Source: Candidatus Poribacteria bacterium | GTDB lineage: Bacteria; Poribacteria; WGA-4E; WGA-3G | Direction: 5' to 3' | Assembly (NCBI GenBank): GCA_009839745.1 | Contig: VXPE01000117.1 | Location: 6,059-70,058 of the forward strand | Length of the DNA: 64,000 bases | Shown: positions 6,500 through 55,263 of the stretch, piece after piece | Layout of the letters: every line of letters begins with the position of its first letter | Numbering within the stretch: the stretch's first letter is position 1 | The notes under the pieces: generated by a model | Told to the model about the DNA's origin: nothing | Databases searched by the model: none | The model's input: only the letters and a program-made list of their open reading frames with translations | Program-made: the position numbers and the translations under genes

Positions 6500-7729
6500 T
6501 TGAAAACTATTATGCAATTAGAAATACCCATGGCAACACGGACTGTTCACAGTGTCAGTGAAATAACAGATCTGTTGAAAAATCTGATAGAACAGCAGCC
6601 ACACCTGCAAAATGTATGGGTTCAGGGACAGGTGTCGAATTACAGTCGATCTGGTGCTGGGCATATCTACTTCACGCTCAAGGATGACAGAAGCCAAATC
6701 CAAGTTATTATGTTTCGGAGCAGTGCCGCAGGTCTCAGATTTGTGCTGAAGGACGGGGAAGAGGTGCTCGTGCAAGGGCGACTGAATCTTTATCCTGCCA
6801 GAGGACAGTATCAGATTAACGCCAATAAGGTAGAACCGCTTGGGATTGGCGCGTTGCAAAGAGCCTTTGAAGATTTGAAACAGCAGCTGGCAGATGAAGG
6901 GTTGTTTGCGGAACATCACAAAAAACCGTTGCCGGTCTTCCCCTTAAAAATCGGCGTGATAACGTCTGCGACGGGAGCGGCGTTTCAGGATATCTGTCAA
7001 CAACTTCGTAAACGGTATCCATTAGCTGAAGTGTTCCTACACCCGACGCTTGTTCAAGGCGATGGCGCGGCAGAAGGGATCGTCCATGCGCTACAAGCGA
7101 TGAACCAACGGGGCGACATAGATGTGTTAATTGTGGGGCGCGGTGGGGGTTCCATTGAGGATCTCTGGGCGTTCAACGAGGAAGTCGTTGCGCGTGCGAT
7201 TTTCGCGTCTGCAATACCAGTGGTTTCCGCTGTCGGGCATGAAACAGATTTTACCATCGCCGATATGGTGGCGGATCACCGGGCACCGACCCCTTCGGCA
7301 GCAGTTGAACATATCGTTCCAGATCAGGGTGAACTTCTCACACAATTGAAGGGATACGACACCTGGCTGCGTAGAATCATAAATGACCGATTTGACACAC
7401 TCAAAACACGGCTCCAAGACCTTGAGACACGGTTCTCACCGACACGGCGAAAGGACGCAATTTATCAACTTCACCAAACATTAGATACTTTGGACCTTGC
7501 GTGTCGGAGTGCTGTAGGACAGAAACTCGCTAATGGTGAACGCGATCTTCACACATTTGCGCAACGCTTAAACGCACTGAGTCCGTTAGCCACGTTGAAA
7601 CGGGGGTATAGTATCAGTCGGAAAACAGATGGAGCGGTACTCACCTCGGCTGAACAGGTGTCGATAGGCGATAGGGTGGAGATTCAACTCGCGGATGGAC
7701 ATCTCGCCTGCCGCGTTGAGGATTTTTAA
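6500..7729 (+). CDS. xseA: Exodeoxyribonuclease VII large subunit
   Basis: SVSEITDLLKNLIE...VWVQGQVSNY (OB fold) and a catalytic core with GRGGGSIEDLWAFNEE. The true start may be ATG 6512 or 6530. Confidence 0.9.
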   Translation: MKTIMQLEIPMATRTVHSVSEITDLLKNLIEQQPHLQNVWVQGQVSNYSRSGAGHIYFTLKDDRSQIQVIMFRSSAAGLRFVLKDGEEVLVQGRLNLYPARGQYQINANKVEPLGIGALQRAFEDLKQQLADEGLFAEHHKKPLPVFPLKIGVITSATGAAFQDICQQLRKRYPLAEVFLHPTLVQGDGAAEGIVHALQAMNQRGDIDVLIVGRGGGSIEDLWAFNEEVVARAIFASAIPVVSAVGHETDFTIADMVADHRAPTPSAAVEHIVPDQGELLTQLKGYDTWLRRIINDRFDTLKTRLQDLETRFSPTRRKDAIYQLHQTLDTLDLACRSAVGQKLANGERDLHTFAQRLNALSPLATLKRGYSISRKTDGAVLTSAEQVSIGDRVEIQLADGHLACRVEDF

Positions 7730-7754: not shown

Positions 7755-7847
7755 CTACGTTCCACGATGGTATCTGGTTAAGTCTGAAGGATGCCAGCGA
7801 ATCCGCTCCGCGTAAATTGGTGCCTAAAAAGGAGTCCATAGTAAAAG

Positions 7848-8033
7848 ATGACATTTGAAGAAAAACTTAAAAAACTCACACAAATTGTTGAACACCTTGA
7901 AGAGGGGAACGAATTACCGCTTGAGGATTCCCTTAAACTCTTTGAAGAAGGCATCGGTTTGATCTCATCGTGTAGACAGATGCTCGAAAGTGCTGAACAG
8001 CGGGTAGAAAACGTTCTCAAAACAGATTCTTAA
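7848..8033 (+). CDS. xseB: Exodeoxyribonuclease VII small subunit
   Basis: 61 aa, MTFEEKLKKLTQIVEHLEEGNELPLEDSLKLFEEGIGL: canonical XseB helical hairpin sequence, adjacent to xseA. Confidence 0.85.
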   Translation: MTFEEKLKKLTQIVEHLEEGNELPLEDSLKLFEEGIGLISSCRQMLESAEQRVENVLKTDS

Positions 8034-8046
8034 CGATTGCGTCTGA

Positions 8047-8071
8047 GCTGCTGCGTCCGTTGTCCTTGCAG
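8047..8071. repeat. 25-nt exact repeat GCTGCTGCGTCCGTTGTCCTTGCAG (copy 1)
   Basis: Identical 25-mer at 37972-37996, same orientation, both intergenic. Confidence 0.8.
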
Positions 8072-8177: not shown

Positions 8178-10031
8178 ATGTTCTTAGAAAAAGTTAACAC
8201 CCCAGCAGATTTAAAAAAACTTGAACTTGAGGAACTGAAAGTGCTTGCTGAAGAGATGCGCGCCTATCTATTGGCGGTGCTCTCTGAACATCCGGGACAT
8301 TTTGCCCCGAACTTCGGGACAGTCGAACTGGCAATAGCTTTGCACAAAGTGTATGACACACCGCGCGACAAAGTCGTCTGGGACATCGGGCATCAGGCGT
8401 ATCCGCATAAACTGCTCACCGGCAGGCGTGACGCGTTCCCAACGCTCCGACAAAGCGGGGGCATCAGTGGATTCCTCAGTAGAGCGGAGAGTGAATACGA
8501 TGTCTTTGGTGCGGGACACTCCAGCACTTCTATCGCCGCGGCTTTGGGGATTGCCACCGCCAGAGACCTTATCAATGAGCATTACAAAGTCGTGGCTGTC
8601 ATCGGAGATGGCGGGTTAACAGGTGGGATGGCATTTGAAGCCTTGAACACCGCCGGGGACTTTAGGAACGATATGACCGTCATTCTCAATGACAACAACA
8701 TGTCCATTTCAGCAACCGTCGGGGCATTCTCTAAACATTTTCATAAACTCACGAGTTCACCACAATATAACCTCCTACGCTCTGGTGCGAAGGGGTTGAT
8801 GAACCTGATTTCAGAGGATGCCAAGCAGATAGCGCGGAAGATTGAGGCATCATTGAAACCCGGCACGCTGTTTGAAGAATTCGGATTCCGCTACTTCGGT
8901 CCGCTTGATGGTAACGATTTAGAGGCATTGATACCCGTTTTGACGGGTATCCGCAGTCTCACGGGCCCTATTTTACTGCATGTCGTAACCGAAAAGGGAC
9001 GCGGTTATACGCCGGCGGAAGAAGATCCGGTCGGGTTCTATAGTGTCAGTGGTCCCTTCAATCTGAAAACAGGAAAGACAACTAAACCGAAACCTGAAAC
9101 CCCGACGTATACGGAAGTGTTCAGCAAAACGTTGATTGAATTGGCGAAACGCGATGCACGGATCGTGGGTGTGACGGCAGCAATGCTTGGCGGGACGGGG
9201 CTGGACAAGTTTGCGAGCGCATTTCCGAGTCGATGCTTTGACATCGGCTTGGCGGAACAGTGTGCGGTTACGTTCGCGGGTGGACTTGCGACACAGGGCA
9301 TGCGTCCCGTTGCCGCTATCTATTCTACCTTCCTCCAGCGGAGTTACGATCAGGTTTTACACGACGTGTGCATCCAAAACCTTCCGGTTGTTTTTGCATT
9401 GGACAGAGCCGGACTTGTCGGGGCAGACGGTCCAACACATCACGGCGTTTTCGATTTCGCTTTCCTCCGCTCTATTCCAAATATGGTTGTCATGGCACCC
9501 AAAGATGAAAACGAACTCCAGTCTATGGTGAAGACGGCTGTGTCGTATCAAGAGGGTCCCATTGCCTTCCGTTACCCGCGTGGCACCGGTATGGGGGTGA
9601 AAATGACTTCAGAACCGCAAGTGCTACCGATTGGAAAAAGTGAGATCGTTAGAGAGGGTGAGGATGTGCTCGTGATTGCCGTCGGCAACCGCGTCTATCC
9701 TGCCCTTGAAGCGGCACAAACGTTAGCGGACTCTGGAATCTCAGCAGCGGTTATTAACGCACGGTTTGTCAAGCCTTTGGACACCGAGACAATTCTTCCG
9801 CTCGCAGAACGGATCGGTAAGGTAATTACGATTGAAGATGGCGTGATAATGGGCGGTTTCGGTAGTGCCGTTTTGGAGGCGATTGCTGCAGCAGGTCTCA
9901 AAGACGTGCAGATCAAAAATCTCGGTATCCCAGATGAATTTATTGAGCACGGCGATATCCAGCATCTCTATGCCCTCTGTCAATGCGATGCGGATGCCGT
10001 TGTTCGCACGGCGCAAGCGATGCTCCAATAG
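8178..10031 (+). CDS. dxs: 1-deoxy-D-xylulose-5-phosphate synthase
   Basis: 617 aa. GHFAPNFGTVELAIALH, WDIGHQAYPHKLLTGR and IGDGGLTGGMAFEALN (TPP motif) are unmistakable Dxs motifs. Confidence 0.95.
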   Translation: MFLEKVNTPADLKKLELEELKVLAEEMRAYLLAVLSEHPGHFAPNFGTVELAIALHKVYDTPRDKVVWDIGHQAYPHKLLTGRRDAFPTLRQSGGISGFLSRAESEYDVFGAGHSSTSIAAALGIATARDLINEHYKVVAVIGDGGLTGGMAFEALNTAGDFRNDMTVILNDNNMSISATVGAFSKHFHKLTSSPQYNLLRSGAKGLMNLISEDAKQIARKIEASLKPGTLFEEFGFRYFGPLDGNDLEALIPVLTGIRSLTGPILLHVVTEKGRGYTPAEEDPVGFYSVSGPFNLKTGKTTKPKPETPTYTEVFSKTLIELAKRDARIVGVTAAMLGGTGLDKFASAFPSRCFDIGLAEQCAVTFAGGLATQGMRPVAAIYSTFLQRSYDQVLHDVCIQNLPVVFALDRAGLVGADGPTHHGVFDFAFLRSIPNMVVMAPKDENELQSMVKTAVSYQEGPIAFRYPRGTGMGVKMTSEPQVLPIGKSEIVREGEDVLVIAVGNRVYPALEAAQTLADSGISAAVINARFVKPLDTETILPLAERIGKVITIEDGVIMGGFGSAVLEAIAAAGLKDVQIKNLGIPDEFIEHGDIQHLYALCQCDADAVVRTAQAMLQ

Positions 10032-11920: not shown

Positions 11921-12010
11921 TTTCACCTATCATCGTAGCAAACAAGTGATTTCTCCAATCAGTAATGCTTATTGAAGCGATTACCCGCCAAAAAGACAAG
12001 GGAAAACAAA

Positions 12011-13099
12011 ATGATTGAGAGAACCGCAACGCAGGCACACGGCGTTACCAGGGATATTATCTCCGAATCTGCTCAGATGCAAGCGGTCTTCCGATATGTT
12101 AAGCGAGTTGCTCCTACAAAGGCGACTGTCCTCATCACAGGTGAAACGGGAGTTGGCAAAGAAGTCGTCGCGCAAGCAATTCACGATAGCAGTCCGCGTA
12201 GAAAGGCTCCGTTCAAAATCATGAACTGTAGTGCGATTCCACCGGAACTCATTCAAAGTGAGCTCTTTGGACACGAAAAAGGAGCCTTTACCACGGCTCT
12301 TCGGCAGCATCGCGGGGTGTTTGAACAAGCGAATCGAGGCACGTTGTTTTTGGATGAGGTAGCGGAAATGCCGCTTGGTGCCCAAGCGAATTTTCTCCGT
12401 GTCTTGGAGGGACGAGAATTCTCTCCGGTCGGCGGGGAAAAAACAATCAAAGTGGATGTCCGAGTTATTGCAGCGACAAATGTTAACCTTAAAACTGCGG
12501 TCAACGAAAAAAAATTTAGAGAAGACCTCTATTATCGAATTAATCTCTTTCGCATTCAGATTCCGCCGCTCCGCCATCGACGTTCAGACATAGGACCTTT
12601 AGCTTTCAATTTCATCTCGCAATTAAGCAGTGAACATAACAGATCAATTAACAGTATAACGCCTGAGGCAATTAACTATCTCCAAAATGTCGATTGGTAC
12701 GGTAACGCGCGCGAACTCAGAAATGTAATAGAGACCGCAATTATCTTGACTGAAGGTGAAGAATTGAAAAAGGAGGATGTGGAAATAGCCGTGGAAATGT
12801 TAAATGAGCATGATGCAAACTCGGCAGGATTATCAGACGCAATTCGTGTCGGAGCAGAAAATTCGAAAGAATTCAATGGGAACTCACATATAATACCTGA
12901 AGACGATAAAAACAGATTCTGGGAGTTAATCCAGACCGGAACAATGTCCGAAATAACCTCTCATGTTACCCTTATGAGATACCGATCAGAAAGTTCTCAC
13001 TGTTCAAAACGGGATATTGCAAAAAGTCTCCAAATATCTGTGCCTACCTTGGACAAGTATTGTGCTTTAGCCGAGGAAAACACTGAAGAAAGAAAATAA
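12011..13099 (+). CDS. Sigma-54-dependent transcriptional activator (bEBP), AAA+ core plus C-terminal HTH, no N-terminal sensor domain
   Basis: Walker A ITGETGVGKE, L1 loop ELFGHEKGAFTTA (GAFTGA variant), Walker B LFLDEV, RVIAATN, C-terminal SKRDIAKSLQISVPTLDKY. ATG 12011 follows AAGGGA. The track ORF starts at TTG 11972. Confidence 0.85.
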   Translation: MIERTATQAHGVTRDIISESAQMQAVFRYVKRVAPTKATVLITGETGVGKEVVAQAIHDSSPRRKAPFKIMNCSAIPPELIQSELFGHEKGAFTTALRQHRGVFEQANRGTLFLDEVAEMPLGAQANFLRVLEGREFSPVGGEKTIKVDVRVIAATNVNLKTAVNEKKFREDLYYRINLFRIQIPPLRHRRSDIGPLAFNFISQLSSEHNRSINSITPEAINYLQNVDWYGNARELRNVIETAIILTEGEELKKEDVEIAVEMLNEHDANSAGLSDAIRVGAENSKEFNGNSHIIPEDDKNRFWELIQTGTMSEITSHVTLMRYRSESSHCSKRDIAKSLQISVPTLDKYCALAEENTEERK

Positions 13100-13397: not shown

Positions 13398-13412
13398 TGG
13401 CACGGTTCTTGC
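13398..13412 (+). promoter_or_regulatory. Sigma-54 promoter (-24/-12)
   Basis: TGGCACGGTTCTTGC: exact TGGCAC-N5-TTGC with canonical GG-to-GC spacing, in a non-coding gap about 300 nt downstream of the bEBP gene. Confidence 0.75.
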
Positions 13413-51592: not shown

Positions 51593-52417
51593 ATGACCAG
51601 TACACCGAAAAATAATTCTGTCTGTCGCAAATCAAACTCGGTTAAAAAAAATACCCAACATTGAAATCTATTTCAACGCCGGGTGGTGATAATTGAATCC
51701 GTTAGTTTTTGTATTATGGGCATCGCCTACGAACCTTCACCACCTGTCGTTGCTGTACAAATATAAGTACAGATAAAGATACAGATACAATCCAAAAAAG
51801 CCTGCAAACACGCCACGGCTTGTAAACGGGGTAAAAAGAGACCATACGTAGCGGGAAGTGTTCCGTGAAGAGACTGGAGCCATCCGGACATGAGGTATCT
51901 GTACTGTGGTTGTATTCCGTTGAAGCGTTCGCATTATCAAGTTCCTAAAAATGAGGCAGTCAAAAGCCTCGCCCTTAATGTTCTGCAAGCAAAGTCCGCT
52001 ATTAGCGCGGATATTTTTATTATTATAACCCAACTTGCTACCTATGTGATTTTAGACGCATGAACACCGTTCTTCAGCCAAAAGCGATCATTTTTGTGAA
52101 AAACTGAGTGCATTCCCTGCCATTTTCAGCACGAAGAGGCACAGGCTAACGGTCTCCTATGCTACAAACTGGCAACTTAGGTTATTATAACGTAAGACGT
52201 TATTTCTGGAAAAGCGTTTAAAATTTCGCAGGGAATAGCGTTTTGAAAAGGGACGCTGTGATTTCCTGTAAAACAGTTAAATCTATTATATAATAACACA
52301 CTTTTTTATGCAAGTCAAATTTCTTTTTTCCAACCGTAGGCGTGAAGTCAATCCGCACCTAATAAAATAGCATTGACTCGTAAATTGAGATGTGCTAATA
52401 TACCAAAAGAGGAAACT

Positions 52418-53080
52418 ATGGAGAGAACTATGCCGAAACAAGAACATTTTACACCGATTACCCTTGGGATTATGGGCGGGTCTGCTTCTGGAAAGACAAC
52501 GTTCGCGAGTGCCTTAGCGGAACAACTCACGGAATACTCGCCTGTCGTGCTAAATCAGGACTCCTATTTTCGCGACTGGTCGGAATACTCCGAGGCAGAA
52601 CGGGAACGCGTCATTACTGCGAATCACCCGGATGCCGTTCTATGGGATGCTCTCATCGCAGACATCAAGAAACTCCGCGATGGCGATGTGATCTACACAC
52701 CCACCCCGGGCACGCGTGCCGCGCAACGCAGTGCAGAAAAAACGAGCGTGCAACCGAGCGAAGTCGTCATTGTGGAAGGACACCTCATCTTCTGGAGTGA
52801 AGATTTACGAGACTTGATGGATATCAAACTGTTCCTTGATGTAGATGCGCATGAACGGGTCCTGCGACGAATGCTCCGTGATGTCGCACAACGCGGCGGT
52901 GATTTGGAGTGGGCTATCAACTGGTATCGGCGCGATGTCCTTCCTAATTTTCCAGTCTATACCGAACCCTGCAAGCAATACGCTGATCTGATTATCCCCT
53001 TTCAAGATGAAAACCCGGTTGCCTTGCGCACGCTTGTTGCCGGAATTCGCGCTCGAATCAAAGAAAATGGATCGGCTTAG
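52418..53080 (+). CDS. udk: Uridine kinase
   Basis: IMGGSASGKTTFA (P-loop) and ...VIVEGHLIF... are the typical Udk/PRK family layout. ATG 52418 follows AGAGGA (the track starts at TTG 52373). Confidence 0.8.
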   Translation: MERTMPKQEHFTPITLGIMGGSASGKTTFASALAEQLTEYSPVVLNQDSYFRDWSEYSEAERERVITANHPDAVLWDALIADIKKLRDGDVIYTPTPGTRAAQRSAEKTSVQPSEVVIVEGHLIFWSEDLRDLMDIKLFLDVDAHERVLRRMLRDVAQRGGDLEWAINWYRRDVLPNFPVYTEPCKQYADLIIPFQDENPVALRTLVAGIRARIKENGSA

Positions 53081-53303
53081 CGGTTAAGAGTCGCGGCAAA
53101 AATTTCTATCTCTCCCTTTCTACCCATCAAAGTCATTTTGACATCCACCCAATGCCATAGCGGCACAGACGATGCCAATTTGGCAAACCCGTTTTTCCGT
53201 CCTATTCTCTCAAGGTTCCCATGTTTTCGGCAGGGCTGAGTCCCACTCGCGCCTTCTACCATGCTTTATTGGTGGGTTTTAGAATTAATTGAACACGCTA
53301 CAC

Positions 53304-53336
53304 CACAGCGAGGTTAGGCAACCTCGCCTACCGGGG
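53304..53336. repeat. REP-like hairpin (copy c, divergent)
   Basis: cacagcgaggttaggcaacctcgcctaccgggg; 8-bp stem gcgaggtt/aacctcgc. Confidence 0.5.
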
Positions 53337-53414
53337 ACGGTGACGCTGCGGTGCAAGTTCCCGATGAAATGTTCACGTATTTTCGGACTTTACTAGAAAA
53401 ATAAAAGGCAGTTT

Positions 53415-53429
53415 TGGCACGGAATTTGC
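53415..53429 (+). promoter_or_regulatory. Sigma-54 promoter 1 upstream of hsp20
   Basis: TGGCACGGAATTTGC, exact TGGCAC-N5-TTGC. Confidence 0.7.
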
Positions 53430-53479
53430 TCTATATGCAAACAGTGAGGCAAATACCTTCAGATTGCCTCAGAAAAGAT

Positions 53480-53494
53480 TGGCACGAAAATTGC
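53480..53494 (+). promoter_or_regulatory. Sigma-54 promoter 2 upstream of hsp20
   Basis: TGGCACGAAAATTGC(A), exact TGGCAC-N5-TTGC. Confidence 0.7.
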
Positions 53495-53502
53495 AATCCA
53501 TT

Positions 53503-53517
53503 TGGCATAGAACTTGC
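53503..53517 (+). promoter_or_regulatory. Sigma-54 promoter 3 upstream of hsp20
   Basis: TGGCATAGAACTTGC(A). GG and GC are correctly spaced. Lies 42 nt upstream of the hsp20 ATG. Confidence 0.65.
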
Positions 53518-53558
53518 ATCTAACATCTACAGAAACAAAAATCAAAAGGAGAAAGAAA

Positions 53559-54011
53559 ATGACTTACTTGACCTTACGCAGACCGATGAGAAATCCGTTC
53601 AGTTTCCACAACGAGGTGGGACGGATTTTTGGAGACTTCTTCGCTTCTCATGAAGGGCGGACAGATACAGAGGAAACCTCTTGGATACCCACGGTGGACA
53701 TCTCTGAAACGGAAAACGGATATGAAATTCGAGCCGAACTTCCCGGTGTCTCCGAAGATGATGTCAATGTCTCCGTAACCGACAACGTCCTCACCCTTAA
53801 AGGCGAGAAACGGCAGGAAGCGGAAACGGAAGGCAAAAATTACCGCCGTGTAGAAAGACGATACGGCAGTTTCCAGCGGAGATTCACACTCCCATCGGAA
53901 GTAAAGACGGACGACATCAAAGCCGAATTTGGCGACGGTGTGTTGACGCTCTCCATCCCGAAGCCGGAAGCCGTGAAACCGACCGAGATTCCTATCACAA
54001 CTGCATCCTAA
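53559..54011 (+). CDS. Hsp20/alpha-crystallin family small heat-shock protein
   Basis: WIPTVDISETENGYEIRAELPGVSEDDVNVSVTDNVLTLKGEK...ERRYGSFQRRFTLP...GVLTLSIPK is the classic ACD sequence. ATG 53559 follows AAAGGAG. Confidence 0.92.
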   Translation: MTYLTLRRPMRNPFSFHNEVGRIFGDFFASHEGRTDTEETSWIPTVDISETENGYEIRAELPGVSEDDVNVSVTDNVLTLKGEKRQEAETEGKNYRRVERRYGSFQRRFTLPSEVKTDDIKAEFGDGVLTLSIPKPEAVKPTEIPITTAS

Positions 54012-54033
54012 TACGTTTACCATAACACAAAAT

Positions 54034-54080
54034 AAAGAAGGCTGGCGCGTGAATGTGCCAGCCTTCTTTATTTTAATTTT
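54034..54080 (+). terminator. Rho-independent terminator of hsp20
   Basis: 13-bp perfect stem aaagaaggctggc/gccagccttcttt with a 10-nt loop, followed by attttaatttt. Confidence 0.85.
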
Positions 54081-54175
54081 ACCTTGCGGAGGAACAACGT
54101 GCGTTCTATCTATTACGTGCGTTTCTTAAACTCGCCTGCGCCGTTGTTGCAGGCTACCCGATGCCTGCTACGCCT
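54071..54175. mobile_element. MITE-family copy (left end plus short core)
   Basis: ttttaattttaccttgcgg...ctcgcctgcgccgttgttgcaggctacccg. Same terminus and GCCTGC/GCAGGC hairpin core as 5527 and 36835. Confidence 0.65.
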
Positions 54176-54600
54176 CTCCTTTGTCTTTGACACTCCCACA
54201 CGTAAACGAGTAGGATTCTTGCTTCCGTCTCTCGTGCCTCTGATTGAGGACTTACTTGGACTCCACAAGCGTTTAGACTCTCGGTCTGCCCGACCGCGAG
54301 GTATTTGGCGAGAAACGAAAGAGGGGTAAAGGTATTTTAACCGAAATATATGTTCTTCGTTTCTCTAATGTTTTGAGTGATTTCGCACCAGCACCACACA
54401 CCTTTCCACGGGTGAGGGATAGGACCCAATCAGAGATTGATTGGGGTGGAAACCCTATCCACGATGCTGGTATCATTATACCACAAAAGCGCGGTGTTTG
54501 TCGAGTTTTTTTACTCGAAAAAGTACGAATCACGTGGGTTGGACCCCGGGGAATGCCATAAGGCATTCATACCGTTGATTTGTCTAAAGCATTCGGATTG

Positions 54601-55263
54601 TTAAGTGCTATCCTTCAAGACGCCGATATAGAGAAGTGCGGCGAGGATTGCCCCGATAAACGGTCCTACGAAATAGAGCCAGATGTCTGCGTAGTTACCA
54701 CTGACAACAGCAGGTCCCAGCGTCCGCGCCGGATTGAGCGAAGCTCGTGTCAAGGGTCCCCCCATGACGATGCAAAACATCAGACCTAACCCGATAGTGA
54801 GTCCTGCGAAGTTCCCCGCTTTTCCGCTCACGGCGGTATTGAAAATGGTATTGACGAGGAAGAAGGTGAGTACGATTTCGACGATAAGCCCTTGTGTTGC
54901 AGTAACCGTGAAGGCCCCACCATTCGCCTCTGTGGTTAGAATCGTCACGCCCAGATCGCCAGGATCAGGTAGCACGACGTTAAGCAGCACTGCCCCCAAA
55001 ATTCCGCCAAGAAACTGCCCAATCCAATAGCCGATAGCTACGACAAATTCTATTTCACCTGCTATCAAGAAGCCCAGCGTCACAGCTGGATTGATATGTG
55101 TACCGGAGATATGCCCATACGCGTAAATAAACGCTATAACAACGAAGCCGTGGGCGAATGCTGCCCCGATTAAGCCACCTGCACCTATCGCTACTGCGCC
55201 TGCACCGATGAAGATCAGTGCGAAGGTTCCAACAAACTCGGCAATTAAGTTTTTCGTATTCAT
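54601..55263 (-). CDS. aqpZ: Aquaporin (MIP family)
   Basis: Two NPA boxes (HINPAVTLG and SLNPARTLGP) and six TM segments in 220 aa. Confidence 0.92.
   Translation of the reverse strand: MNTKNLIAEFVGTFALIFIGAGAVAIGAGGLIGAAFAHGFVVIAFIYAYGHISGTHINPAVTLGFLIAGEIEFVVAIGYWIGQFLGGILGAVLLNVVLPDPGDLGVTILTTEANGGAFTVTATQGLIVEIVLTFFLVNTIFNTAVSGKAGNFAGLTIGLGLMFCIVMGGPLTRASLNPARTLGPAVVSGNYADIWLYFVGPFIGAILAALLYIGVLKDST

What the first reader, a model, noticed from the sequence alone, without database searches (positions are those of the whole stretch)
53415..53561. Three tandem consensus sigma-54 promoters upstream of an hsp20 gene
**What the sequence shows.** Within 103 nt of the hsp20 upstream region, and on the same strand, there are three -24/-12 elements with correct GG/GC spacing:

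- TGGCACGGAATTTGC (53415-53429)
- TGGCACGAAAATTGCA (53480-53495)
- TGGCATAGAACTTGCA (53503-53518)

**Why chance is unlikely.** An exact TGGCAC-N5-TTGC match fixes 10 positions, so it is expected roughly once per million positions per strand. Two exact copies and one single-mismatch copy stacked in one leader are therefore not chance.

**Context.** Sigma-54 control of a small heat-shock gene has a precedent: E. coli ibpB has been reported to have a sigma-54 promoter. A triple tandem arrangement is unusual. It could give graded or multi-activator input, or act as a sigma-54 holoenzyme sink. Promoters 2 and 3 are only 23 nt apart, so they cannot be occupied at the same time.
Basis: partly seen in the sequence, partly recalled or inferred. 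Interest (0 to 1): 0.6.

Follow-up and report, generated by a model that had tools for sequence, protein, structure and literature searches.

The report
Tandem sigma-54 promoters driving poribacterial hsp20
Three sigma-54-type promoter boxes in a row, served by one upstream enhancer, precede the only small heat-shock gene of this uncultured Poribacteria genome; the layout is conserved across the family and belongs to a sigma-54-run chaperone regulon, an unusual variant of a control already known in Flavobacterium.

Summary
Three co-oriented -24/-12 boxes lie at 53415, 53480 and 53503, upstream of hsp20 (ATG 53559). A matrix trained without them scores them 22.7, 26.3 and 23.2 bits out of 28.6. 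They are the only strong cluster in the 5-Mb genome.

The genome is a Candidatus Poribacteria MAG. It has an intact rpoN and about ten activator (bEBP) genes. No HrcA or bona fide RpoH was found.

The hsp20 boxes belong to a regulon. All five intergenic copies of the palindrome TGCCA-N3-TGGCA lie upstream of sigma-54 boxes, at hsp20, dnaK, groESL, clpB and lon. This enhancer-plus-promoter module is present in 44 of 45 genomes of the genus.

The tandem layout is conserved:
- Two or three boxes precede hsp20 in 43 of 45 genus genomes and in sister genera.
- The third box arose by a 23-nt duplication here and by a ~64-nt duplication elsewhere.
- Box spacings lie near whole helical turns.

Best reading: an enhancer-dependent promoter battery giving strong but tight stress induction of the sole sHSP.

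The closest known system is the set of TSS-mapped sigma-54 chaperone promoters of Flavobacterium psychrophilum. I class this as a new variant of a known kind.

The parts
53132..53142 (.). GTCATTTTGAC palindrome (G-Y-CA-N3-TG-R-C type). Putative third, distal activator site of the enhancer.
   Evidence: Read. Conserved as GTCATTTTGAC or GCCATTTTGAC in the hsp20 loci of 20 species. GTCAAATTGAC occurs at the same relative place upstream of dnaK and lon.
53153..53165 (.). UAS1, TGCCATAGCGGCA (one mismatch to TGCCA-N3-TGGCA). Putative bEBP binding site.
   Evidence: It lies 20 bp from UAS2. clpB has the same 20-bp pair. Conserved as TGCCACAGTGGCA in relatives.
53173..53185 (.). UAS2, TGCCAATTTGGCA. 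Exact copy of the regulon palindrome and putative bEBP binding site.
   Evidence: there are 8 exact copies in the genome. All 5 intergenic ones lie upstream of sigma-54 boxes of hsp20, clpB, groESL, lon and dnaK; the palindrome-plus-promoter module is found in 44/45 genus genomes, and the reversed control pattern in 0/121.
53186..53414 (.). Variable spacer between enhancer and P1. It includes a copy of a short interspersed repeat at 53278-53340.
   Evidence: The spacer is absent in the close relatives L003 and L020, where UAS2 is 9 nt from P1. Other sequences fill this position in other species. The 53278-53340 segment matches 20 or more other places in the genome.
53415..53429 (+). P1, sigma-54 box TGGCACGGAATTTGC. 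Predicted start near A53441.
   Evidence: PWM score 22.7 bits. Present and almost invariant (TGGCACGnAATTTGC) in 20 of 21 species sampled through Hsp20 homology. The transcription start is inferred from the usual 11-nt distance after the -12 GC.
53445..53471 (+). Hairpin TGAGGCAA-N11-TTGCCTCA at about +5 to +31 of a P1 transcript. Proposed 5' stem-loop of the P1 mRNA.
   Evidence: MFE -10.3 kcal/mol, z = -3.3 against shuffles. Kept in most genus members, and in both units of the genomes that duplicated the 64-nt module, with different stem sequences. Covariation within the close set is weak. The hairpin is absent in genus g2.
53480..53494 (+). P2, sigma-54 box TGGCACGAAAATTGC. Predicted start near 53506. 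It is the 5' copy of a 23-nt tandem duplication.
   Evidence: PWM score 26.3 bits. The 23-nt unit is present in 10 of the 20 aligned leaders that carry P1 and absent in the other 10. The -24 element is degenerate (TGGTAC) in L002.
53503..53517 (+). P3, sigma-54 box TGGCATAGAACTTGC, the proximal box. Predicted start near A53529.
   Evidence: PWM score 23.2 bits. Every species has a box at this proximal position, followed by the conserved leader ATCTAACATCTACAGAAACAAAA.
53546..53551 (+). Shine-Dalgarno sequence AAGGAG in an A-rich, unstructured leader.
   Evidence: Predicted pairing of this sequence does not change with temperature or with which promoter is used.
53559..54011 (+). hsp20 (150 aa). 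The only small heat-shock protein gene found in the genome.
   Evidence: PF00011, E 2.4e-27. tblastn of the protein against the whole genome finds this copy only.
54029..54074 (+). Intrinsic terminator of hsp20.
   Evidence: A 20-bp stem followed by a T-run.

Best explanation
**What it is.** The three boxes are genuine sigma-54 (RpoN) promoter elements of hsp20. They form a promoter battery that depends on one upstream enhancer.

**The enhancer.** It consists of three palindromes of the type G-Y-CA-N3-TG-R-C at 53132-53185. An unidentified enhancer-binding ATPase (bEBP) would bind them. The same enhancer type plus a sigma-54 box precedes dnaK, groESL, clpB and lon. In this Poribacteria lineage the core protein-quality-control (heat-shock) regulon is therefore run by sigma-54 plus one activator. 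The genome lacks HrcA and a recognisable RpoH.

**How it would work (inferred).**
- Sigma-54 holoenzyme sits in silent closed complexes at P1 and at either P2 or P3.
- P1 and P2 are 65 bp apart and can both be occupied. P2 and P3 are 23 bp apart and exclude each other.
- Under proteotoxic stress the activator, looping from the enhancer, opens whichever complexes are present.
- Sigma-54 promoters have essentially no activator-independent activity. Stacking them therefore raises induced output of the single sHSP gene without raising the basal level.
- Transcripts from P1 carry a 5' hairpin that probably stabilises the longer leader.

**Shown versus inferred.**
- Shown: the sequence elements, their genome-wide specificity, and their conservation and turnover.
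- Inferred: promoter activity of each box, heat induction, the identity and regulation of the activator, and the benefit of multiplicity.
For: **Quality and uniqueness of the boxes.**

**Sigma-54 machinery.** rpoN is intact, with the RpoN box ARRTVQKYR. About ten bEBP genes are present, four of them sensor-less. The same box precedes glnA.

**Regulon.**
- All 5 intergenic copies of TGCCA-N3-TGGCA lie upstream of sigma-54 boxes of hsp20, clpB, groESL, lon and dnaK.
- hsp20 and clpB have paired sites 20 bp apart.
- The palindrome-41 nt-promoter module is in 44/45 genus genomes, in sister genera and in family f3. The reversed control pattern hits 0/121 genomes.
- No HrcA was found. No RpoH reached the family cut-off. 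There is no credible sigma-70 promoter in the leader.

**Conservation of the tandem layout.**
- P1 is present in 20/21 species, and a proximal box in 21/21.
- A tandem pair is present in 43/45 genus genomes and roughly two thirds of the genomes from the other genera of the family. The reversed control hits 0/121.
- In every sister-genus locus whose layout matched the hsp20 leader, the gene downstream is an hsp20 orthologue.

**Selection for multiplicity.**
- A third box arose by a 23-nt duplication here and by a ~64-nt promoter-plus-hairpin duplication in G070, G083, G091, G111 and G112.
- An independent, perfect 24-nt duplication precedes hsp20 in a different family (G002).
- Box number changed at least 3-4 times on the hsp20 tree.
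- Start-to-start spacings cluster at 23, 41-42, 52, 61-65, 72-73 and 84 bp, near whole helical turns.

**Precedent.** 5'-end-mapped sigma-54 promoters precede groESL, lon, dnaK, grpE-dnaJ, htpG and clpB in Flavobacterium psychrophilum (PMC9723704). A PSSM survey predicts the same for Planctomycetota and Bacteroidota (PMC12316311).
Against: - There is no transcript evidence of any kind.
- The activator is not identified. No bEBP gene carries the palindrome nearby.
- One of the P2/P3 pair is degenerate in L002, L007 and L014, and half of the species manage with two boxes. The third box is therefore dispensable and could be nearly neutral.
- In L003, L020 and G079 the enhancer abuts P1 with a 9-nt gap. 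That is too close for ordinary looping, so P1 may not always be activated in the same way.
- The helical-phase statistic is not corrected for shared ancestry.
- The hairpin shows little covariation within the genus and is missing in genus g2.
- Closed complexes at P2/P3 could act as roadblocks for transcription from P1, which would work against simple additivity.
Confidence: 0.7

Rival explanations
1. Only one box, most likely the proximal one, is the working hsp20 promoter. The other boxes are by-products of local tandem duplication that are tolerated but add nothing.
For: The 23-nt unit is present in only about half of the species. One member of the P2/P3 pair has decayed in L002, L007 and L014. 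L014 lacks P1 altogether. Perfect 21-24-nt promoter duplicates also turn up at unrelated genes, which suggests a frequent mutational process.
Against: P1 is almost invariant in 20/21 species, while the sequence just upstream of it is unalignable and Hsp20 itself drops to 67% identity. A second box at 41-88 bp is kept in four genera. A third box was gained by two different duplication routes, and again in another family, always at hsp20.
Confidence: 0.15
2. The upstream box or boxes act mainly as regulatory holoenzyme-binding sites rather than as productive promoters. P1 could be a docking or competitor site next to the enhancer. Closed complexes at P2/P3 could block read-through from P1 (transcriptional interference, or a 'sink').
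For: In the short-form species the enhancer is 9 nt from P1, so the activator and the holoenzyme at P1 would touch or compete. P2 and P3 overlap sterically. Sigma-54 closed complexes are known to be long-lived.
Against: Most species separate the enhancer and P1 by 150-260 bp of variable sequence. The sequence around the predicted start (A-CAG) and a 5' hairpin follow P1, as expected of a transcribed unit. Three sites cannot titrate a cellular pool of holoenzyme.
Confidence: 0.1
3. The repeated motif is the operator of a different DNA-binding protein, such as a heat-shock repressor, and only resembles sigma-54 promoters.
For: The half-site TGGCA also occurs in the upstream palindrome TGCCA-N3-TGGCA. 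One protein recognising TGGCA could in principle read both.
Against: The boxes keep the exact GG-N10-GC geometry and the full TGGCAY-N5-TTGC consensus. The same consensus precedes glnA and about 30 other genes at promoter distance. The variable positions are the ones sigma-54 does not read. rpoN is present and HrcA is absent.
Confidence: 0.03

Closest known systems
Sigma-54 ('SM4') promoters of the protein-quality-control genes of Flavobacterium psychrophilum (Guerin et al. 2021, PMC9723704)
   Same: The same set of genes (groESL, dnaK, lon, clpB) lies behind -24/-12 promoters, in a bacterium outside the Proteobacteria. There the transcription starts were mapped by 5'-end RNA-seq.
   Different: That paper's table of selected sigma-54 promoters lists a single start position per gene or operon, does not include hsp20, and describes no enhancer; the activator is likewise unnamed. 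Here hsp20 carries two or three boxes in a row, and a defined palindromic enhancer is shared by the regulon. The phylum is different (Poribacteria).
Predicted sigma-54 control of GroEL/ES, IbpA, GrpE and DnaJ/K in Planctomycetota and Bacteroidota (PSSM survey, PLoS One 2025, PMC12316311)
   Same: Computational inference that chaperone genes, including the sHSP (COG0071), belong to the sigma-54 regulon in these phyla.
   Different: Poribacteria are not covered. Tandem promoters and enhancers are not described (the terms 'tandem' and 'Poribacteria' occur 0 times).
E. coli ibpB sigma-54 promoter (cited in PMC4370416: sigma-32 transcribes ibpAB and sigma-54 transcribes ibpB)
   Same: A small heat-shock gene read from a sigma-54 promoter.
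   Different: In E. coli it is a single secondary promoter inside an operon whose main control is sigma-32. Here sigma-54 appears to be the only control, the box is multiplied, and the whole chaperone set shares the enhancer.
HsfA/HsfB of Myxococcus xanthus
   Same: A bEBP activates a heat-shock protease gene through a sigma-54 promoter.
   Different: HsfA is a response regulator with a cognate kinase and a narrow target set. The activator here is unidentified, and the best candidates are sensor-less.
Classical sigma-54 enhancers (NtrC at glnAp2, PspF at pspA, NorR at norV; textbook knowledge)
   Same: Two or three palindromic sites about two helical turns apart lie upstream of a -24/-12 promoter and act by DNA looping.
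   Different: One enhancer here faces an array of promoters instead of one. The enhancer-to-promoter distance at hsp20 varies from 9 to about 260 bp among species.

Membership tests
Sigma-54 (-24/-12) promoter | TGGCAC-N5-TTGC consensus with GG-N10-GC spacing | tested here: met
   All three boxes fit. They score 22.7-26.3 of 28.6 bits with a matrix trained on other sites of the genome.
Sigma-54 (-24/-12) promoter | rpoN and bEBP genes present in the genome | tested here: met
   PF04552 match at 196 bits, in a 601-aa intact ORF with an RpoN box. There are 9 full-length PF00158 proteins plus fragments.
Sigma-54 (-24/-12) promoter | Upstream activator sites (enhancer) | tested here: met
   Three palindromes at 53132-53185. 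The same palindrome lies upstream of four other sigma-54 boxes and nowhere else in intergenic DNA.
Sigma-54 (-24/-12) promoter | Transcripts start about 12 nt after the GC element and depend on RpoN and on ATP hydrolysis by a bEBP | not testable with these tools
The organism is uncultured.
Sigma-54-dependent protein-quality-control regulon (Flavobacterium type) | Sigma-54 promoters in front of groESL, dnaK, lon and clpB | tested here: met
   The arrangement is conserved in relatives.
Sigma-54-dependent protein-quality-control regulon (Flavobacterium type) | Induction by heat or proteotoxic stress | not testable with these tools
   No expression data could be reached.
Sigma-32 or HrcA/CIRCE heat-shock control | RpoH or HrcA encoded in the genome; sigma-32-type or sigma-70-type promoter, or CIRCE, in the leader | tested here: not met
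   No PF01628 hit. The best TIGR02392 match is 140 bits against a cut-off of 323. One weak sigma-70-like match in the region is no more than chance gives. The genome is 96% complete, so absence is likely but not proven.
RNA thermometer of sHSP genes (ROSE / fourU) | Leader structure that masks the SD/AUG and melts with temperature | tested here: not met
   No Rfam match above noise. Predicted pairing of the SD is 0.57-0.63 at 20, 37 and 45 C for all three predicted transcripts.
PspF-like sensor-less bEBP as the regulon's activator | An AAA+ sigma-54 activator without a sensor domain that binds the palindrome | tested here: inconclusive
   Four sensor-less bEBPs exist. None has the palindrome near its gene. 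Binding specificity cannot be read from the sequence.

The most novel reading that the evidence does not exclude
Poribacteria have repeatedly and independently multiplied the sigma-54 promoter of their single sHSP gene: by 23-24-nt duplications, by 64-nt promoter-plus-hairpin duplications, and again in a second family. They keep the copies roughly in helical register. This would make the leader a selected 'promoter array' in which one enhancer-bound activator fires several pre-loaded closed complexes. It would be a way to gain output without leak that is specific to activator-dependent sigma-54 promoters and has not been described.
Probability: 0.35. Interest if true: 0.6.

Novelty: new variant of a known kind. 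Interest (0 to 1): 0.45.

Why it matters
- **Extends a little-known heat-shock control.** Textbook bacterial heat-shock control is sigma-32, HrcA, HspR or CtsR. This locus adds an uncultured phylum, best known from marine sponges, to the short list of lineages where sigma-54 plus an enhancer-binding ATPase appears to run the chaperone regulon. It also supplies a precise enhancer motif with which the missing activator can be sought.
- **An evolutionary experiment on promoter dosage.** The multiplied promoter shows how output of an activator-dependent promoter can be raised. Copy number changes by clean 23- or 64-nt steps, and the spacing looks phased.
- **Practical use.** A leak-free, stackable sigma-54 promoter module could be useful in synthetic biology.
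- **Limit.** Everything rests on comparative sequence evidence. The basic idea, sigma-54 in front of chaperone genes, is already published for Flavobacterium.

Tried and rejected
- **Known RNA families.** An Rfam scan of 52000-55000 gave only sub-threshold noise. The leader is not a known RNA element.
- **RNA thermometer.** Folding the three predicted transcripts at 20, 37 and 45 C shows no temperature- or promoter-dependent masking of the SD. Rejected.
- **Leader peptide.** The 79-codon ORF 53414-53653 overlaps the boxes. Its frame is broken by the 23-nt and 8-nt indels among species, and its ATG lies upstream of the predicted P1 start. Rejected.
- **Hairpin covariation.** Within the close species set, only 1 of 5 pairs shows a double change. 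In genus g2 the equivalent spacer does not fold better than shuffles. The hairpin is therefore a genus-level feature, not a requirement of the tandem layout.
- **Activator identification.**
  - No palindrome or sigma-54 box lies next to any of the nine full-length bEBP genes, apart from the local targets of the C82 and C67 bEBPs.
  - In G062 a bEBP gene ends right next to a TGCCAAAATGGCA-plus-promoter module. The downstream gene there is not a chaperone, so it gives no usable link.
- **Hidden fourth box.** The spacer holds none at 11 bits or more. Part of it is an interspersed repeat.
- **Literature.** A phrase search for tandem or overlapping sigma-54 promoters returned nothing relevant.
Full report
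**1. The observation**

- P1, TGGCACGGAATTTGC, 53415-53429
- P2, TGGCACGAAAATTGC, 53480-53494
- P3, TGGCATAGAACTTGC, 53503-53517

All are on the + strand. Downstream lie:
- the Shine-Dalgarno sequence AAGGAG (53546-53551);
- a 150-codon gene starting at ATG 53559, which Pfam identifies as Hsp20/alpha-crystallin (PF00011, E 2e-27);
- a strong intrinsic terminator at 54029-54074.

Chance does not explain the cluster:
- The window has only one other exact TGGCAC-N5-TTGC.
- The whole 5.04-Mb assembly has 39 exact matches against 8.9 expected.
- A weight matrix trained on 29 other intergenic sites of this genome scores the boxes 22.7, 26.3 and 23.2 bits out of a possible 28.6.
- Genome-wide, 42 sites reach 19 bits, against 6 in shuffled sequence. 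This is the only place where strong sites cluster.

**2. Organism and sigma-54 machinery**

Hsp20 relatives place the window in Candidatus Poribacteria. Twenty species have 67-95% identical proteins.

The assembly is 96% complete. It encodes:
- an intact 601-aa RpoN with the RpoN box ARRTVQKYR;
- nine full-length enhancer-binding proteins plus fragments. Five are response-regulator types and four lack any sensor domain.

No HrcA was found. No sigma factor reaches the RpoH family threshold: the best score is 140 bits against a cut-off of 323.

The only sigma-70-like match in the hsp20 upstream region is weak and no more than shuffles give.

**3. The boxes belong to a regulon**

I listed every TGGCAY-N5-TTGC in the genome with its downstream gene. 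Intergenic copies lie in front of dnaK, clpB, groES-groEL, lon and glnA, besides hsp20 and many small secreted proteins.

The chaperone and protease promoters share an upstream inverted repeat, TGCCA-N3-TGGCA.
- The genome has eight exact copies.
- Three lie inside genes, about what chance gives.
- All five intergenic copies lie upstream of the sigma-54 boxes of hsp20, clpB, groESL, lon and dnaK.
- hsp20 and clpB have a second, one-mismatch copy exactly 20 bp away.
- A further GTCA-N3-TGAC palindrome lies about 20-45 bp further upstream at hsp20, dnaK and lon.

At hsp20 the three sites are at 53132-53142, 53153-53165 and 53173-53185.

Several palindromes about two helical turns apart, upstream of a -24/-12 promoter, is the classical architecture of a bEBP enhancer (established knowledge: NtrC, PspF, NorR).

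The module is conserved. The pattern TGYCA-N3-TGGCA, 35-60 nt, TGGCAY-N5-TTGC occurs:
- in 44 of 45 genomes of the genus, mostly with an invariant 41-nt gap;
- in sister genera;
- in family f3.

The same pattern read backwards occurs in none of 121 genomes.

**4. The tandem layout is conserved, and its copy number moves**

In the 20 species fetched through Hsp20 homology, an unbiased sample:
- P1 is present in 20 of 21 sequences including the window, and is nearly invariant (TGGCACGnAATTTGC).
- A proximal box followed by the conserved leader ATCTAACATCTACAGAAACAAAA is present in all.
- The sequence upstream of P1 cannot even be aligned.

The extra 23-nt unit that makes P2 in the window is present in 10 of the 20 aligned leaders that carry P1 and absent in the other 10. 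P2/P3 are thus a 23-nt tandem duplication. One of the two copies has decayed in L002 (TGGTAC), L007 (TGGTAT) and L014.

On an hsp20 tree, the number of boxes changed at least three to four times.

A phylum-wide scan for two boxes 5-80 nt apart gave these hits:

| Group | Genomes with a hit |
|---|---|
| Same genus | 43 of 45 |
| Other genera of the family | roughly two thirds |
| The order's other families | 3 of about 30 |
| Reversed control pattern | 0 of 121 |

I fetched 20 of these places.
- The gene downstream is an hsp20 orthologue in every fetched locus of genera g2, g3 and g5. In genus g4 the two tandem pairs fetched precede other genes.
- Five genus-g1 genomes (G070, G083, G091, G111, G112) reach three boxes by a different route: a duplication of the ~64-nt unit 'promoter plus hairpin'.
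- G002, from another family, has an independent perfect 24-nt duplication in front of its hsp20.

Counting exact boxes, 48 genomes have two and 21 have three.

Start-to-start distances fall at 23, 41-42, 52, 61-65, 72-73 and 84 bp, close to whole helical turns (mean phase 0.6 bp, R = 0.57). This suggests a same-face constraint. The sample is not corrected for shared ancestry, so I treat it as a lead.

**5. Other anatomy**

*The spacer.* The 229 bp between enhancer and P1 (53186-53414) are variable.
- The close relatives L003 and L020 lack them, leaving 9 nt between UAS2 and P1. So does G079 of genus g5.
- Other species carry unrelated repeat-rich sequence there.
- In the window, 53278-53340 is a copy of a short interspersed repeat with at least 20 copies in the genome.
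- The enhancer therefore works, if it works, over 9 to about 260 bp at this gene. At dnaK and lon the gap is fixed at 41 nt.

*The hairpin.* Just after the predicted P1 start (about 53441) lies a hairpin at 53445-53471, with -10.3 kcal/mol and z = -3.3.
- Most genus members keep a hairpin there.
- Both copies of the 64-nt duplicated unit keep one, with different stems.
- Covariation within the close set is weak.
- Genus g2 has no comparable structure.
- It has no T-run, so it is not a terminator.
- I read it as a 5' stem-loop of the P1 transcript. This is inference.

*No thermometer.* There is no Rfam family and no temperature-dependent masking of the ribosome-binding site.

**6. Mechanism proposed**

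*Shown:* the elements, their specificity, and their conservation and turnover.

*Inferred:*
- Sigma-54 holoenzyme forms closed complexes at P1 and at one of P2/P3. A 65-bp separation allows both to be occupied. The 23-bp offset makes P2 and P3 mutually exclusive, given the roughly 30-bp closed-complex footprint known for sigma-54.
- An activator hexamer assembled on the three palindromes loops to them and opens them under proteotoxic stress.
- Because sigma-54 promoters are silent without their activator, adding promoters raises the induced ceiling of the cell's only sHSP gene without adding leak.

The repeated, independent gains of a further box at this one gene are what one would expect if multiplicity is advantageous. 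The frequent loss or decay of the third box shows the advantage of the third copy is small.

*The activator is unidentified.* My weak favourite is the sensor-less, HTH_8-bearing 478-aa bEBP at C22:110724-112160. It has no local sigma-54 target of its own. A PspF-like control by a titratable partner, for instance a chaperone, is speculation.

**7. Comparison with what is known**

- Flavobacterium psychrophilum has 5'-end-mapped sigma-54 promoters in front of groESL, lon, dnaK, grpE-dnaJ, htpG and clpB (PMC9723704).
- A 2025 PSSM survey predicts sigma-54 control of GroEL/ES, IbpA, GrpE and DnaJ/K in Planctomycetota and Bacteroidota (PMC12316311).
- E. coli ibpB has a secondary sigma-54 promoter (PMC4370416).

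The kind is therefore known. What I did not find in the literature searched is:
- an array of two or three sigma-54 promoters on one gene;
- its conservation over a bacterial family;
- its stepwise copy-number evolution;
- the poribacterial enhancer motif.

Earlier notes of this scan on other genomes (e1-1235571, e1-550733, e1-933568, e1-5158527) describe the same layout and enhancer. I reproduced their main claims independently here. They are not independent evidence.

**8. Verdict**

- This is a new variant of a known kind.
- Interest is moderate: a neat, conserved and evolvable regulatory architecture in an uncultured phylum, so far supported only by comparative sequence analysis.

Noticed in passing
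G000:C91, about 7830-8060 (minus strand; outside the window): The clpB leader, between its sigma-54 box and the start codon, holds two tandem ~100-nt repeats. Each has a terminator-like hairpin (CCTGCAACA..GCGCAGGG followed by a T-run) and ends in 'ACCGAACCGCAAGGAAAA(A)TTAAAA' just before the ATG. This could be an attenuator or a repeat insertion.
   Followed up: no
window 53278-53340: A short interspersed repeat with a core of about 29 nt (roughly 53308-53336), which includes the hairpin GCGAGGTT..AACCTCGC. It has at least 20 copies across the genome. Here it sits in the enhancer-to-promoter spacer.
   Followed up: partly
G000:C110:26808-26876 and C98:6988-7056 (outside the window), and orthologues: Between the palindrome and the sigma-54 box of dnaK and lon, a GGAATTTCC-like inverted repeat sits at a fixed position within the invariant 41-nt gap in dozens of genomes. 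It could be a bending-protein site or a second regulator's site.
   Followed up: no
L039 (G100), L040 (G085), L035 (G061), L045 (G111): Perfect 21-24-nt tandem duplications of a sigma-54 box also precede glnA, a sigma-70-family gene, a porin-like gene and a small Cys-rich secreted protein in other Poribacteria. Promoter-sized duplications are recurrent in the phylum.
   Followed up: partly
window 11972-13099 and 13398-13412: A sensor-less bEBP (375 aa) whose sigma-54 contact loop reads GAFTTA instead of GAFTGA. Pfam finds no HTH_8 domain in it. An exact sigma-54 box follows on the same strand.
   Followed up: no
G000, many contigs: Most other intergenic sigma-54 boxes precede small or medium-sized proteins with N-terminal signal-like segments. 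Two of them lie next to sensor-less bEBP genes (C82, C96). This fits the 'cell exterior' theme proposed for sigma-54 regulons.
   Followed up: no
G000:C89:about 7150-7350 and 8770-8810 (outside the window): A repeated element ending in 'CCGCCTGACCGAACCGCAAGGAATAATTAAA' occurs twice upstream and once downstream of the NtrC-type bEBP gene, and also in the clpB leader. It seems to bring its own ribosome-binding region to gene starts.
   Followed up: no
G000:C94:50562-50696 (outside the window): The groESL enhancer-to-promoter gap is 107 nt in this genome but 42 nt in relatives (G055, G068, G087, G120). There is a ~65-nt insertion containing further GTCA-type half-sites.
   Followed up: no
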